Below, piece by piece: positions 2,675 through 62,890 of a DNA stretch of 64,000 nucleotides. Position 1 is the first letter of the stretch, and each line of letters opens with the position of its first letter. This DNA comes from a virus (Duplodnaviria > Heunggongvirae > Uroviricota > Caudoviricetes). The notes beneath the pieces were generated by a model that worked only from the letters and a program-made list of their open reading frames with translations, was not told the origin of the DNA and made no database searches. Position numbers and translations under genes: made by a program. The DNA lies in the IMG/VR virus record IMGVR_UViG_3300032007_000008. The stretch is one strand, 5' to 3'.

Positions 2675-4189
2675 ATGCACACCAGCATAGAAAACGAAAC
2701 GGAATTTTCTGACTCGTTGGTTTCCGAGTGGATTTTACATGAGATTTTCAACAATTCGACTTATCTTGAAACACTATCTCGTGTAAACAACGAAAAGTGG
2801 TACAGCGATTATGAGGTTGGACTTCTGATTAGCCTCGTAATTGCGTATTACAACCGTCACCACGAGATTCCGACTACTGCGGCAATAGAGGGAAACATAA
2901 GCTATCTTGCCGAAAAGGGGCGTCTGAAGACTGAACCGTCTGAGCTTATCAGAAAGTTCAACGACATAACGACCACACACATAGACATAGACCAAGATAC
3001 CGTTAGGGAGTCTATAGAGCTGTTTGTGAAGAAAAGCGGTCTTTTCCAGTGCATAACAGACTATATTTCGGCCAAGACCGACATAGGAAACAGCAAAAAG
3101 AAGAACGTAACGTTTGAAAGTACATATGGAGAGATGTCCAAGTTCTATGAATTTAGATTGGACAATGACCTCGGTCTTCGTTATTTCGAGCAATTCGACA
3201 AGCAACTTGAGTATCTAATGAACCCCGACGTTCGCCTAAAGACCGGCGTCGATGCGATAGACACATGGACGAATGGAGGGATACCAAGCGAGGGAAACTG
3301 CCTATGTGCGTTTCAAGCTGGAACGAACGTCGGAAAAACTCTGTTTTTGGCAAATCTTGCATATAACATGCTAAAGCAGAACAAGTGCGTTGTGGTAATA
3401 ACCATGGAGATTTCCGCTTTGGGATACGGAAGAAGGCTTTCCGCACTGATAAGCGGATGCAATGTTGACTGTCTTGCCGCATATCACGATGAGCTTGAGA
3501 AAAATGTCAAGGCGTTTAAGGAGGAACACGACAAGGCCGTACTAATATTCAAGGAATATCCTATGCATGGGACTACTACAGGCGAGATAGACACCTACAT
3601 AGAGAGCTTAAAGCACGATGGGGTTAATCCAGACCTTGTTATTATAGACTATCTTAACCTTCTGACACCTTCGTTCTGCAACAAGAACGAACAGCAGTGG
3701 ATAAAGGTTGCAATAGTCTCCGAGCAGCTTAGGGCGATATCAAAAAAGTGGAAGATACCGTTTTTTACGGCAACGCAGAGTTCCAGGTCGTCATTGATGG
3801 ACCAAGAGACAAAACTTGCAGATATGTCGCAAAGTCTCGGTTTGGCGGTTGCCGCAGATTTGGTTCTCGGTCTTTACTGTTTTACAGAAGAAGAGGATGT
3901 CGTTCACATGAACTGCATAAAGAACAGGTTTGGCTCTAAGAACTATGTGTCTAGGATGTATAGGGTTGACAAAAATACACTTGAGCCTATGGACATAGGG
4001 GACTCAAAATCGGACGACGCTTCAGAGATAGTGAATCCGATAATGACCATACAGAAATCCGCAAAGGTTGTCGAAGCGGAGAAAAAGACTGAATCCGATA
4101 AAATCGTCGCTGAGCAGAAGATTTCAGTTCCATCTCCTAAAAGCAGTCCACTTTCATCAATAGGAAACGACGAATTCGAGCTGTTCTGA
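2675..4189 (+). CDS. DnaB-family replicative helicase (T4 gp41-like)
   Basis: Walker A AGTNVGKT, ITMEIS, VIIDYLNL, TATQSSR, KNRFG; follows uvsX as in T4-like phages. Confidence 0.9.
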   Translation: MHTSIENETEFSDSLVSEWILHEIFNNSTYLETLSRVNNEKWYSDYEVGLLISLVIAYYNRHHEIPTTAAIEGNISYLAEKGRLKTEPSELIRKFNDITTTHIDIDQDTVRESIELFVKKSGLFQCITDYISAKTDIGNSKKKNVTFESTYGEMSKFYEFRLDNDLGLRYFEQFDKQLEYLMNPDVRLKTGVDAIDTWTNGGIPSEGNCLCAFQAGTNVGKTLFLANLAYNMLKQNKCVVVITMEISALGYGRRLSALISGCNVDCLAAYHDELEKNVKAFKEEHDKAVLIFKEYPMHGTTTGEIDTYIESLKHDGVNPDLVIIDYLNLLTPSFCNKNEQQWIKVAIVSEQLRAISKKWKIPFFTATQSSRSSLMDQETKLADMSQSLGLAVAADLVLGLYCFTEEEDVVHMNCIKNRFGSKNYVSRMYRVDKNTLEPMDIGDSKSDDASEIVNPIMTIQKSAKVVEAEKKTESDKIVAEQKISVPSPKSSPLSSIGNDEFELF

Positions 4190-59181: not shown

Positions 59182-59273
59182 TTGCGGCAAAATGCCAAGT
59201 GTGGTATAATGGTCGCCGTAGCTGAAAAAAAAAGGCGAAAGCCTTTAGCTCTTTGACAATTGAATGTAGATGA
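59182..59273 (+). promoter_or_regulatory. rrn-like promoter with GNRA hairpin and boxA leader (copy 1)
   Basis: TTGCGG-17-TATAAT, GC-rich discriminator, AAAGGC-gaaa-GCCTTT, TCTTTGACAATTGAATGTAGATGA. Confidence 0.75.
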
Positions 59274-59383
59274 CTAGGGTTTAACGACCCTATGGAGAAG
59301 AAACATGGGTTTCTTCCGTCCGAAGTCCACAATGATTCGGAACATTCTTTGTCGTTCGGTTGCGGTAACGCAACCGACGAAAT

Positions 59384-61441: not shown

Positions 61442-61521
61442 TTGCGAAAAACGCAGTCATGTGCTATAATAGGCGGCGTTTCCGAAAGGAAGCTGGTTCT
61501 TTGACAATTGAATGTAGATGA
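61442..61521 (+). promoter_or_regulatory. rrn-like promoter with GNRA hairpin and boxA leader (copy 2)
   Basis: TTGCGA-17-TATAAT, AGGCGGCG, TTCC-gaaa-GGAA, same 24-nt TCTTTGACAATTGAATGTAGATGA. Confidence 0.75.
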
Positions 61522-61525
61522 AGAC

Positions 61526-61741: not shown

Positions 61742-61819
61742 AGGAGCGTAGCTCAGCCCGGTGAGAGCAGCATCCTTATAAGTTGTTGGTCGGTGGTTCA
61801 AATCCACTCGCTCCTACCA
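61742..61819 (+). tRNA. tRNA-Ile(TAT)
   Basis: CT-TAT-AA loop, ACCA. Confidence 0.85.
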
Positions 61820-61822
61820 AAT

Positions 61823-61898
61823 AGTCCTGTAAGCTAATTGGATAAACTTCAAGGCTACGAACCTTGTATTCCGGGTTCAAGTCCCGGTGGGACTGCCA
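61823..61898 (+). tRNA. tRNA-Arg(ACG)
   Basis: CT-ACG-AA loop, GCCA. Confidence 0.9.
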
Positions 61899-61905
61899 TT
61901 GCCGA

Positions 61906-62027
61906 AAGACGCACACAGCAATTCAACTTCTAAAATTCACTGTTAATGAAAAGGCGTGGGTTCGAATCCCGCAACCGCACGGCAAAGCGGTTTAGCTTAG
62001 TGGTAGAGCTTTAAAGAAGGCGTCTAG
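61906..62027 (+). ncRNA. ACAGCAA cassette C with circularly permuted tRNA(GTT)
   Basis: AGACGC/GCGTCT enclosing anticodon arm, T arm, loop-closed acceptor stem and D arm in that order. Confidence 0.7.
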
Positions 62028-62263
62028 TTATTTAATTTCATGCAACGGCTGCTGTATCGATGATTTGCAGAATTCAAAGTTCTGTCAACAGACAATGACG
62101 CAATAATCGATATGGTTTTAACAGCGAAAGCCTTTGCAGACTTGCAACCGCCGAGGCAGATGGAGGCGGCGGACGATGGAGGGGTGTCGCTCACCCCGTT
62201 ATCCGTATGAACCATTGGGAGTGCTGCGTCCCGCTCAGCCCGTCGAAGACGGACAACGCAGAT

Positions 62264-62379
62264 AAGTCACATGCAGCAATTAAAATTCTCCACCATTTGG
62301 GGAAATAGCATAATTGGTTAGTGCGTCCGTCGAAAGGCGGAAGGTTCTGGTTCGAATCCAGATTTAAATTGGTGACTTG
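62264..62379 (+). ncRNA. GCAGCAA cassette D with permuted, anticodon-less tRNA
   Basis: AAGTCAC/GTGACTT enclosing TTCTCC-ACCA-ttt-GGGGAA, D arm, GAAA-capped stem, T arm. Confidence 0.7.
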
Positions 62380-62391
62380 TTTTCAATCTTT

Positions 62392-62457
62392 AAGACTCAT
62401 ACAGCAACAAGCTATAAGCAATTGACAGTTAATCAATCACGCTAATACCGAGTCTTG
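62392..62457 (+). ncRNA. ACAGCAA cassette E with isolated anticodon-like hairpin
   Basis: AAGACTC/GAGTCTT enclosing ATTGA-CAGTTAA-TCAAT. Confidence 0.65.
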
Positions 62458-62461
62458 CCTT

Positions 62462-62537
62462 GCCTTGATAACACAGTGGTTTAGTGTGTCAGCCTTCCAA
62501 GCTGAAGACACCGGTTCGAATCCGGTTCAGGGCTCCA
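62462..62537 (+). tRNA. tRNA-Gly(TCC)
   Basis: CT-TCC-AA, TCCA. Confidence 0.9.
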
Positions 62538-62806: not shown

Positions 62807-62890
62807 TGGCATGTAGCGCGTATACGGTGATAGCTGCTCTTAAGTACATAGAGCCAACAAATGCGGGTTCGACTCCTGCCATGCCTACCA
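62807..62890 (+). ncRNA. atypical tRNA with 9-nt anticodon loop
   Basis: GGCATG/CATGCC, GCTCT-TAAGTACAT-AGAGC, canonical T arm, ACCA. Confidence 0.6.

What the first reader, a model, noticed from the sequence alone, without database searches (positions are those of the whole stretch)
62264..62379. Second permuted tRNA, opened at a different point and lacking an anticodon
Seen: 3' acceptor strand plus ACCA comes first (TTCTCC-ACCA, 62286-62295), looped by TTT to GGGGAA, then D arm GCAT/GTGC, a stem capped by GAAA in place of the anticodon loop (TCCGTC-gaaa-GGCGGA), then T arm TCTGG-TTCGAAT-CCAGA. The permutation point differs from cassette C and the CCA is locked in a loop. Inference: independent captures presenting different tRNA faces from the same handle.
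Basis: partly seen in the sequence, partly recalled or inferred. Interest (0 to 1): 0.75.

Follow-up and report, generated by a model that had tools for sequence, protein, structure and literature searches.

The report
Inside-out tRNA mimic in phage
This 116-base stretch of a giant cattle-gut phage is a real, conserved gene for a small RNA built as an isoleucine tRNA written in rotated order, unable to decode, and clamped by a "handle" that travels with a phage Ro60-shaped protein, so it is best read as a new architectural class of Y-RNA-like tRNA mimic, not a broken tRNA.

Summary
Positions 62264-62379 (+) fold as a 7-bp closing stem, an AUGCAGCAA motif, a short AU helix, a capped acceptor hairpin (UUCUCC-ACCAUUU-GGGGAA), a D arm, a 6-bp stem capped by GAAA, and a T arm.

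It is not a chance junction. A model built from it finds the same five-helix RNA in nine other phage records, including the cultured Bacillus phage vB_BcoS-136. Across the ten, 94.5% of pair cells are paired and 28 of 33 pairs show compensatory changes.

Rotated back to normal order, all ten are called tRNAs by ARAGORN, five as tRNA-Ile(GAU). This class is therefore an old tRNA-Ile derivative opened between nt 65 and 66. The NCCA in the loop is intact in only 5 of 10, G3:U70 occurs only here, and the anticodon loop is decayed furthest here.

The handle is shared with 12 sister cassettes in this genome and is enriched about six-fold, strand-specifically, beside DUF2828/DUF7788 genes. That protein models as a Ro60 fold. 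All ten records encode it.

Best reading: the RNA half of an undescribed Ro60-like/Y-RNA-like particle. Binding and function are inferred, not shown.

This scan had already noted the handle family on other DNA. The 65/66-opened class is the new part. One tool, the look-up of encoding contigs, was closed.

The parts
62264..62270 (+). Handle stem P1, 5' strand (AAGUCAC)
   Evidence: Pairs with 62372-62378. In 10 homologs the helix is 100% paired and 6 of 7 pairs show changes on both sides. The same grammar occurs in 12 sister cassettes.
62271..62279 (+). Conserved handle motif AUGCAGCAA (variant of N-ACAGCAA)
   Evidence: CAGCAA is invariant in all 10 class members. It is shared by the genome's sister cassettes and by 134 same-strand cassettes beside DUF2828 genes.
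62277..62281 (+). Inner AU-rich helix P1b, 5' strand (CAAUU)
   Evidence: Pairs with 62367-62371. All 5 pairs change on both sides somewhere in the family, and 82.6% of cells are paired. Register near the junction is uncertain.
62286..62291 (+). Acceptor 3' strand (tRNA nt 67-72, UUCUCC)
   Evidence: Pairs with 62299-62304. All 6 pairs are compensatory across 10 homologs. The rotation test gives a tRNA.
62292..62298 (+). Loop ACCAUUU: discriminator A73 + CCA + UUU linker
   Evidence: Read directly. NCCA is intact in 5 of 10 homologs, one base off in 4, and absent in 1. A strain variant inserts a U here.
62299..62304 (+). Acceptor 5' strand (tRNA nt 1-6, GGGGAA), with G3:U70
   Evidence: G3:U70 occurs in this phage only. 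G2>A in one strain variant.
62308..62324 (+). D arm (GCAU / AAUUGGUUA / GUGC)
   Evidence: Rfam tRNA alignment. 100% paired, 2 compensatory pairs, and the GG of the D loop is conserved.
62326..62341 (+). Anticodon-arm equivalent: 6-bp stem capped by GAAA (16 nt instead of 17)
   Evidence: The stem covaries at all 6 pairs. Homologs carry UUGAUAA, CUGAUAA, CAGAUAA, CGGAUAA or CGUGAAAA.
62342..62345 (+). Variable loop (AGGU)
   Evidence: Rfam tRNA alignment.
62346..62362 (+). T arm (UCUGG / UUCGAAU / CCAGA)
   Evidence: GGUUCGA..CC is invariant in all 10 members.
62363..62366 (+). Junction linker UUUA (family consensus CUUUAA)
   Evidence: Conserved in sequence across homologs. Pairing partner is ambiguous: AAA 62283-85 or AAA 62303-05. 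A>G at 62366 in strain variants.
62367..62371 (+). P1b 3' strand (AAUUG)
62372..62379 (+). Handle stem P1, 3' strand (GUGACUU) plus conserved terminal G

Best explanation
The stretch is a gene for a non-decoding small RNA of about 116 nt, transcribed inside the phage's tRNA operon.

Its body is a circularly permuted derivative of a tRNA-Ile(GAU)-type gene. The order is 3' acceptor strand, ACCA, UUU, 5' acceptor strand, D arm, anticodon arm, T arm, so the opening lies between tRNA nt 65 and 66. It keeps the D-loop/T-loop elbow nucleotides but has lost the anticodon loop (GAAA on a 6-bp stem).

Its two ends are clamped by the stem + N-ACAGCAA handle, which marks a large, undescribed family of phage small RNAs.

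Inferred steps:
- The RNA is released from the polycistronic tRNA precursor by the ordinary tRNA-processing nucleases.
- The handle protects the ends and is the docking site for the phage's Ro60-fold protein (DUF2828 + DUF7788).
- The L-shaped body acts as a tRNA look-alike that brings a tRNA-recognising factor to that particle, or soaks one up, as Y RNAs do for Ro60.
- The likely biological role is RNA surveillance or counter-defence.
For: SHOWN
- Structure: the five helices are conserved with covariation in 10 phage records, and an alignment not fitted to the model agrees.
- Permuted tRNA: ARAGORN calls all 10 rotated sequences tRNAs, 5 of them tRNA-Ile(gat). The L220 homolog's body also gives blastn matches to phage tRNA-Ile genes.
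- Non-decoding: loop lengths are 4/6, 7 and 8 nt, and position 33 is U, A or G.
- Handle family: 13 cassettes in this genome share it. In 80 DUF2828 loci there are 134 cassettes on the gene's strand and 23 on the other strand, against 17/22 and 14/13 in two control sets.
- Co-occurrence: this genome encodes DUF2828 + DUF7788. So do all 4 records found through the RNA pattern alone and Bacillus phage vB_BcoS-136, where the gene lies 1.9 kb downstream.
- Protein fold: the AlphaFold model's 13 best full-length PDB matches are all Ro60/TROVE chains (E 1e-8 to 4e-5, TM about 0.5).
- Selection within the species: a variant strain shows 0 changes in 87 nt of handle + D/AC/T core, against 14 events in the 236-nt spacer upstream.
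- RNA libraries: contigs from two cattle-gut metatranscriptome studies cover the element.
- No ORF longer than 43 aa overlaps it.

LITERATURE
- Y RNAs are tRNA mimics bound by Ro60 (PMC4201824).
- In E. coli phage Bas63 the Ro60-like gp130 counters the Ppl defence system, and the authors guessed that neighbouring 'tRNAs' are Y RNAs (10.1101/2024.10.10.617714).
- I verified that bas63_0130 is a DUF2828 protein with three ACAGCAA cassettes just downstream.
Against: - No binding, end-mapping or phenotype data exist for this RNA. RNA-library contigs do not prove transcription.
- In this genome the DUF2828 gene is about 185 kb from the array.
- The handle lacks the known Ro60-binding motif, the YrlA model does not hit the element even at E <= 10, and no TROVE domain is present. 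The Ro60 analogy therefore rests on fold and gene co-occurrence only.
- The RNA-ligase, AAA and phosphoesterase neighbours of DUF2828 here are not conserved in 81 other loci. An RNA-repair role is not supported as a rule.
- The acceptor hairpin varies between strains: one indel in the stem, one in the loop, and G2>A.
Confidence: 0.55

Rival explanations
1. Free-standing tRNA decoy. The handle is only an end-clamp or processing signal that stabilises the RNA against exonucleases. The RNA acts without the DUF2828 protein, as bait for host tRNA-directed nucleases, modification enzymes or toxins.
For: - The DUF2828 gene is 185 kb away in this genome.
- The element sits among about 30 tRNAs in one operon.
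- The tRNA core is under purifying selection.
- Phage tRNA arrays are thought to counter tRNA nucleases (stated in 10.1101/2024.10.10.617714).
Against: - The handle motif is conserved in sequence (CAGCAA invariant), which a mere clamp does not need.
- Cassettes cluster strand-specifically next to DUF2828 genes.
- All 10 records with this class encode DUF2828.
- Many sister cassettes carry no tRNA parts at all.
Confidence: 0.17
2. RNase P-opened two-piece RNA. The capped acceptor arm is a pre-tRNA-like substrate. RNase P cuts between U62298 and G62299 and exonucleases trim back to the encoded ACCA. The result is a nicked tRNA-shaped RNA held together by the handle, with a free CCA end that could be charged (alanine identity in this phage) or targeted.
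For: - Precedent: the capped acceptor stem of M. smegmatis YrlA is cut by RNase P and receives CCA in vivo (PMC4201824).
- NCCA lies directly after the 3' strand in 5 of 10 members and is one base off in 4.
- This phage has G1-C72, G2-C71, G3:U70, G4-C69 and A73. From my own knowledge these are the E. coli tRNA-Ala identity elements.
Against: - CCA is lost in half the family, and L293 has a 5-nt loop with no trace of it.
- G3:U70 occurs only here, and G2 is mutated in one strain.
- The hairpin has 6 bp, and Chen et al. attribute RNase P cleavage to a 7-bp stem.
- The strand linking T stem and acceptor is interrupted by the handle, so the 12-bp coaxial stack that RNase P and AlaRS read is not guaranteed.
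Confidence: 0.1
3. Precursor of a genuine tRNA. As for the permuted tRNA genes of the red alga Cyanidioschyzon, the termini are cut and ligated (the phage has an RNA ligase) into a circle, which RNase P and 3' trimming open at the acceptor end to give a working tRNA.
For: - The rotation test gives tRNA-Ile(gat) with a perfect 7-nt loop in several relatives.
- An RNA ligase gene lies two genes from DUF2828 in this genome.
Against: - This element has no anticodon (GAAA), so it cannot decode.
- In the family U33 is replaced by A or G, loops are 6 or 8 nt long, and CCA is lost in half the members.
- No bulge-helix-bulge motif is present at the termini.
- The ligase is not linked to DUF2828 elsewhere (0 of 81 loci).
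Confidence: 0.04
4. Decaying junk: a junction of two tandem tRNA genes, or a tRNA pseudogene with no function of its own.
For: - A tandem tRNA duplication followed by loss of the outer parts is the simplest origin of the order seen.
- The acceptor hairpin, its loop and the anticodon loop drift.
Against: - The same architecture occurs in 10 phage records, with 28 of 33 pairs compensatory.
- The closing stem is conserved.
- Between strains there are zero changes in 87 nt of handle + core, against about 5 expected from the spacer rate.
- The genome holds a single copy.
Confidence: 0.03

Closest known systems
YrlA (Y RNA-like A, Rfam RF02553), bound by bacterial and mycobacteriophage Ro60/Rsr (Chen et al. 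2014, PMC4201824)
   Same: - A small RNA whose 5' and 3' ends form a protein-binding stem that encloses a tRNA-like module with T arm, D arm and a capped acceptor stem.
- Encoded with a Ro60-fold protein, often in or beside phage tRNA clusters.
- Non-decoding.
   Different: - Circular order: YrlA is opened in the anticodon arm, whereas this RNA is opened between T stem and acceptor 3' strand and keeps a complete anticodon arm.
- The handle motif is N-ACAGCAA, not GNCGAAN0-1G.
- The partner candidate is DUF2828/DUF7788, not a Pfam TROVE protein.
- The RF02553 model gives no hit here.
Deinococcus radiodurans Yrn1 (as modelled in Chen et al. 2014)
   Same: - The order relative to the RNA ends is D-like, then anticodon-like arm, then T arm, with the protein-binding stem where the acceptor stem would be.
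- The 'anticodon loop' is shortened (6 nt).
   Different: - Yrn1 has no extra capped acceptor hairpin and no full D arm.
- It binds a TROVE Ro60 through the GGUCCGA-type helix.
- No sequence relationship was found.
Circularly permuted tRNA genes of Cyanidioschyzon merolae and some green algae and archaea (Soma et al. 2007; from my own knowledge)
   Same: The 3' part of the tRNA is encoded upstream of the 5' part, joined by a short linker after CCA or the acceptor end. A likely origin is tandem duplication.
   Different: - Those genes mature through a bulge-helix-bulge cut and ligation into working tRNAs.
- Here there is no such motif and no anticodon, and family members have defective loops.
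Phage ACAGCAA-handle RNAs beside DUF2828 genes
   Same: Identical handle grammar, location in tRNA operons, and co-occurrence with the same protein family. This element is a member.
   Different: The members noted before carry YrlA-type permuted tRNAs or simple hairpins. This class is opened at nt 65/66. It was not found in Bas63.
Dictyostelium Class I RNAs (PMC7919456)
   Same: A short terminal stem, followed directly by an unpaired conserved 11-nt motif and then variable cargo. The paper gives C6, C9, A10 and A11 as near-invariant, which fits ...ACAGCAA. The full motif CCUUACAGCAA is from my memory.
   Different: - They are eukaryotic, 42-65 nt long, and carry no tRNA-like cargo.
- No link to DUF2828 was tested here.
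- The resemblance is a lead only.
Two-piece (permuted) tmRNA
   Same: A permuted gene order with the CCA-bearing acceptor strand first. In this phage only, an alanine-type G3:U70 acceptor and no anticodon.
   Different: There is no tag reading frame and no pseudoknots. ARAGORN finds no tmRNA. G3:U70 is not conserved in the family.

Membership tests
Canonical tRNA (Rfam RF00005) | D arm, anticodon stem, variable loop and T arm with conserved elbow nucleotides | tested here: met
   37.7 bits against a cut-off of 29, model positions 5-66. GG in the D loop and GGUUCGA..CC are conserved in 10 homologs.
Canonical tRNA (Rfam RF00005) | Acceptor strands at the two ends of the gene, in the order 5' strand ... 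3' strand-CCA | tested here: not met
   ARAGORN gives no call in the native order and calls a tRNA only after rotation. The Rfam match lacks positions 1-4 and 67-71.
Canonical tRNA (Rfam RF00005) | 7-nt anticodon loop with U33 and a 3-nt anticodon | tested here: not met
   A GAAA tetraloop on a 6-bp stem. ARAGORN reports a 2-nt 'anticodon'.
Permuted tRNA genes (Cyanidioschyzon type) | 3' portion encoded upstream of 5' portion, joined by a short linker | tested here: met
   Direct reading. The rotation test was positive in 10 of 10 members.
Permuted tRNA genes (Cyanidioschyzon type) | Bulge-helix-bulge motif formed by leader and trailer, for splicing-endonuclease cleavage and circularisation | tested here: not met
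   The termini form a 7-bp stem, then a one-sided bulge of 6-9 nt, then an AU helix. There are no opposed 3-nt bulges.
Permuted tRNA genes (Cyanidioschyzon type) | Matures into a decoding tRNA | tested here: not met
   No anticodon here. Loops in relatives are defective. Maturation itself cannot be tested with these tools.
YrlA / bacterial Y RNA (RF02553) | Match to the family covariance model | tested here: not met
   No hit on 62264-62379 even at E <= 10, while sister cassettes score 31-36 bits against a cut-off of 69.
YrlA / bacterial Y RNA (RF02553) | Terminal stem made by the 5' and 3' ends, enclosing a tRNA-like module with capped acceptor, D and T arms | tested here: met
   The circular order of the module differs from YrlA.
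YrlA / bacterial Y RNA (RF02553) | Ro60-binding motif GNCGAAN0-1G (GGUCCGA-like) near the 5' end | tested here: not met
   The handle carries AUGCAGCAA instead. GUCGAAAG at 62329-62336 fits the pattern but lies in the anticodon hairpin and is absent from all 9 homologs.
YrlA / bacterial Y RNA (RF02553) | Encoded within a few kb of a TROVE-domain Ro60 gene, on the same strand | tested here: not met
   No TROVE match in the genome. A Ro60-fold DUF2828 protein exists but lies 185 kb away. In 5 relatives it lies 0.2-2 kb away.
YrlA / bacterial Y RNA (RF02553) | Physically bound by Ro60 | not testable with these tools
   Needs immunoprecipitation or a gel-shift assay.
Phage ACAGCAA-handle RNAs (undescribed; noted by this scan) | Terminal stem of 6-9 bp beginning (A/U)AG and ending CU(U/A)G | tested here: met
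   AAGUCAC / GUGACUU-G. 12 sister cassettes share the grammar, and the stem covaries in 10 homologs.
Phage ACAGCAA-handle RNAs (undescribed; noted by this scan) | Conserved N-ACAGCAA directly 3' of the 5' strand | tested here: met
   AUGCAGCAA, with one G-for-A difference. CAGCAA is invariant in the class.
Phage ACAGCAA-handle RNAs (undescribed; noted by this scan) | Co-occurrence with a DUF2828/DUF7788 gene | tested here: met
   Met for this genome, for 4 of 4 records found by RNA pattern alone, and for vB_BcoS-136. Strand-specific enrichment is 134 against 23.
tmRNA | Tag-peptide reading frame and tmRNA fold | tested here: not met
   ARAGORN and Rfam report no tmRNA. The longest overlapping ORF is 34 aa and is not conserved.

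The most novel reading that the evidence does not exclude
In the cell the capped acceptor arm is opened by RNase P between U62298 and G62299 and trimmed back to the encoded ACCA. This gives a nicked, two-piece, tRNA-shaped RNA held together by the protein-bound handle.

Its free CCA end is then either charged (this phage has the full alanine identity set G3:U70/A73) or offered as bait to host toxins and defence enzymes that attack tRNA acceptor ends.

Under this reading, the different permutation classes on one handle would be a panel of decoys, each exposing a different vulnerable part of a tRNA.
Probability: 0.07. Interest if true: 0.85.

Novelty: new variant of a known kind. Interest (0 to 1): 0.6.

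Why it matters
Y RNAs that mimic tRNA are known only with TROVE-type Ro60 and only in one circular order. This finding adds three things.

First, a second conserved way of mounting a whole tRNA body on a protein-binding handle, opened at nt 65/66, with the anticodon arm and the acceptor tip both free.

Second, it places that design in a large phage RNA family tied to a different Ro60-fold protein family. That family is DUF2828/DUF7788 (PHROG 850, 'RNA-binding protein'), found in 710 GenBank phage records.

Third, one member of that protein family, Bas63 gp130, has been reported to counter a bacterial defence system.

Because the class exists in a cultured Bacillus phage, and sister cassettes exist in E. 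coli phage Bas63, the open question of what tRNA mimicry does for Ro60-type particles becomes directly testable. It also flags unannotated RNA genes, and probably spurious small CDS calls, in many phage tRNA clusters.

Tried and rejected
- **Exact and semi-exact DNA patterns in IMG/VR.** An exact 23-mer found nothing. CTCCACCA..GGGG..TAGC returned 119+ stretches that were tandem tRNAs or coding DNA, with no relative among them.
- **Synteny through the neighbouring ClpP-like gene.** The single protein found nothing. With an alignment, the two nearest loci (L132, L133; 49-51% identity) have no tRNA array beside ClpP.
- **Large terminase.** Only one distant locus was found.
The closest relatives of this phage (DUF2828 73-86% identical, ClpP 81% identical, on ENA/Logan contigs) could therefore not be read.
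- **blastn of the array against GenBank phages.** It gave only ordinary tRNA matches. blastn with the L263 homolog also gave only a tRNA match.
- **Pattern scan of 185,579 bacterial and archaeal genomes.** The first 100 scored at most 56 bits with the class model; the eight best I read were ordinary tRNA-Ile or tRNA-Asn genes with a chance ACAGCAA upstream. No cellular member was found. The sample was truncated, so this is not proof of absence.
- **RNA-repair context.** The phosphoesterase, AAA and RNA ligase genes flanking DUF2828 here have no homologs within 10 kb of DUF2828 in 81 other loci. I rejected this as a general linkage.
- **YrlA Ro60-binding motif in the anticodon hairpin.** GUCGAAAG is not conserved in homologs and is treated as chance.
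- **Alanine identity.** It is not conserved in the family.
- **RNA-library contigs**. They are assembled contigs, so they give no ends, strand or expression level. The places where they stop (62369, 62467) are not evidence of processing.
- **Literature.** Searches for DUF2828 and for permuted tRNAs in phages found no description of this RNA.

Full report
**Setting.** The window is bases 195039-259038 of a 291,479-bp IMG/VR phage record. The phage encodes GroEL, a ClpP-like protease, NAD-ligase, DnaB and a large terminase. It comes from cattle gut. From 58.7 kb to the window's end and beyond lies a plus-strand tRNA operon with 19 ARAGORN tRNAs in the window and a promoter-like site at 61442-61470. 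The finding (62264-62379) lies in this operon. No ORF longer than 43 aa overlaps it.

All listed elements are at the stated coordinates.
- The Rfam tRNA model matches 62303-62365 at 37.7 bits (cut-off 29), but only over model positions 5-66, which is the D, anticodon, variable and T parts.
- ARAGORN makes no call in the native order.
- The minimum-free-energy fold (z = -3.1) gives the closing stem AAGUCAC/GUGACUU, the hairpin UUCUCC-ACCAUUU-GGGGAA, the GAAA-capped hairpin and the T arm.
- I rotated the sequence by script to 5' acceptor strand ... T arm + 3' acceptor strand + ACCA. ARAGORN then calls a tRNA with a 2-nt 'anticodon'.

The element is therefore formally a circularly permuted tRNA opened between nt 65 and 66, with the anticodon loop replaced. 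Cassette C (61906-62027) has the order T arm, capped acceptor, D arm, and gives a partial YrlA-model match. Its opening is in the anticodon arm, so the two cassettes do differ in their opening point.

**It is not a chance junction.** A covariance model made from this one sequence (R1) found full-length matches in four IMG/VR loci that had been fetched only because they encode a DUF2828 protein. A second model (R2) plus a DNA pattern scan added four more records. blastn with one homolog led to the cultured Bacillus phage vB_BcoS-136. There the RNA lies unannotated between tRNA-His and tRNA-Glu and scores 89.6 bits, although it was not used to build the model.

In the 10-sequence alignment (A6):
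- 94.5% of pair cells are standard pairs, against 27-45% when partners are slid.
- 28 of 33 pairs show changes on both sides, against 5-14 when slid.
- Every helix is supported, including the closing stem (6 of 7 pairs), the acceptor hairpin (6 of 6) and the anticodon stem (6 of 6).

That alignment was fitted to the model, so I also ran MAFFT + RNAalifold. It independently returned the handle, acceptor hairpin, D and T helices, with 16 of 21 pairs compensatory. The genome holds one copy of this class.

**What the family says about the odd features.** After rotation, all ten are called tRNAs. Five are tRNA-Ile(gat), with loops UUGAUAA, CUGAUAA, CAGAUAA and CGGAUAA. Two have 8-nt loops, one is called tRNA-Gln(ttg), and two (this element and L300) have 6-nt loops. 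The L220 homolog's body also gives blastn matches to phage tRNA-Ile genes.
- The class descends from a tRNA-Ile(GAU)-type gene. Its anticodon loop is no longer held to decoding rules, since position 33 is U, A or G. This phage shows the most reduced state.
- The loop that closes the acceptor arm reads NCCA in 5 of 10 members. It is one base off in 4 (GUCA, UUCA, GCAA, ACCU). In L293 it is a 5-nt loop with no trace of CCA.
- The CCA is thus ancestral and at most weakly constrained.
- G3:U70 with A73, the alanine identity, occurs only in this phage.

**Strain-level evidence.** Contigs from other cattle-gut samples, laid on the region, differ from the window at 14 places in the 236-nt spacer upstream. 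Inside the element they differ at only four places: a U lost at the base of the acceptor hairpin, a U gained in its loop, G2>A in one run, and A>G at 62366. Nothing changes in 87 nt of handle, D, anticodon and T parts. From the spacer rate about 5 events would be expected there. Contigs from metatranscriptome libraries of two studies cover the element (61790-62467 and 62067-62369). Contigs cannot show ends, strand or expression, so this is weak support.

It encodes one protein with DUF2828 + DUF7788 (PHROG 850, 'RNA-binding protein'), about 185 kb from the array. No TROVE match exists.
- Its AlphaFold model (pLDDT 77.7) has Ro60/TROVE structures as its 13 best full-length PDB matches, including Thermus phage Ro60, Xenopus and human Ro60, and Deinococcus Rsr (E 1e-8 to 4e-5, TM about 0.5).
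- In 80 DUF2828 loci I counted 134 handle cassettes on the gene's strand against 23 on the other strand, mostly just upstream of the gene. Two control sets gave 17/22 and 14/13.
- All four records found through the RNA pattern alone encode DUF2828. So does vB_BcoS-136, 1.9 kb downstream of the RNA.
- The protein family occurs in 710 GenBank phage records. Some are annotated 'Ro-like RNA binding protein'.

**Function.** Nothing here shows function, and what follows is analogy.
- Ro60 uses Y RNAs as tethers and gates. YrlA-type Y RNAs mimic tRNA. The capped acceptor stem of M. smegmatis YrlA is cut by RNase P and receives CCA in vivo (PMC4201824).
- A Thermus phage Ro60 binds phage Y-like RNAs and host PNPase (PMC12135203).
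- A preprint reports that Bas63 gp130, Ro60-like by structure and lying just upstream of the tRNA genes, counters the Ppl defence system. Its authors guessed that some neighbouring 'tRNAs' are Y RNAs.
- I confirmed that bas63_0130 is a DUF2828 protein and that three ACAGCAA cassettes lie just downstream. Two of them sit under annotated minus-strand mini-CDS. Bas63 lacks the 65/66 class.
- In this genome DUF2828 sits between a metallophosphoesterase, an AAA ATPase and an RNA ligase. That neighbourhood is not conserved elsewhere (0 of 81 loci), so I do not build on it.

**Unresolved anatomy.** The junction is a five-way one. The UUU after the T stem could pair with AAA 62303-62305, as the Rfam alignment does, or with AAA 62283-62285, which would extend the handle-side helix right up to the T stem. 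The linker after the T stem is conserved in sequence (CUUUAA), so covariation cannot decide. Which helix stacks on the T arm, and hence which face of the mimic is displayed, remains open.

**Verdict.** The reading as a permuted, anticodon-less tRNA on the common handle is right. The 'independent capture' reading and the emphasis on a locked CCA are not supported. The element is a member of an undescribed phage RNA family that this scan has met before on other DNA. Within that family it defines a distinct, conserved class. I rate it a new variant of a known kind (Y-RNA-like tRNA mimics), with interest 0.6.

Noticed in passing
window 62028-62263: The 236-nt spacer between cassette C and this element has a GC-rich, hairpin-prone stretch (about 62140-62260). 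A 303-nt RNA-library contig (62067-62369) covers most of it, from 62067 on. It diverges about 6% between strains and matches no Rfam family.
   Followed up: no
window 62329-62336: GUCGAAAG in the GAAA hairpin fits GNCGAAN0-1G, the proposed Rsr-binding motif of YrlA. It is absent from all nine homologs, so it is probably chance.
   Followed up: partly
genome 66608-72238 (- strand) = L308:4609-10239: A gene row of metallophosphoesterase, DUF2828/DUF7788, AAA ATPase and RNA ligase (PF09414). It looks like an RNA-repair module but is not conserved beside DUF2828 in 81 other loci. A phrog_3886 ORF (L308:11222-11992) does recur, in 16 of 81.
   Followed up: partly
L434:3695-3762 and 3782-3907 (Escherichia phage Bas63, MZ501086 82694-82906): Two handle cassettes, one a YrlA-type permuted tRNA mimic. 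They lie mostly under the annotated minus-strand hypothetical CDS bas63_0137 and 6 nt short of bas63_0138, so those mini-CDS calls (certainly 0137) are probably spurious.
   Followed up: partly
L292:6001-6130 (Bacillus phage vB_BcoS-136, NC_071049 55322-55451): An unannotated ortholog of this RNA class sits in the tRNA array of a cultured phage. It has an ACCA loop and a CAGAUAA 'anticodon' loop. The DUF2828 gene is annotated only as a hypothetical protein (gp238).
   Followed up: yes
window 61921 -> 62416 (table 5c): One DNA contig of a related sample joins the ACAGCAA motif of cassette C to the cargo of the cassette at 62392, with 5 other letters between. Other contigs carry the same handles with different cargo. 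This hints that cassettes recombine or are swapped at the handle.
   Followed up: no
window 62807-62887: A tRNA-shaped sequence with a 9-nt anticodon loop (gctct-taagtacat-agagc). It scores 22.9 bits, below the Rfam cut-off, and ARAGORN does not call it.
   Followed up: no
window 59182-59285 and 61442-61525: Two promoter-like sites are each followed by a hairpin and the identical leader CTTTGACAATTGAATGTAGATGA (boxA-like). A third promoter-like region lies at about 58750.
   Followed up: no
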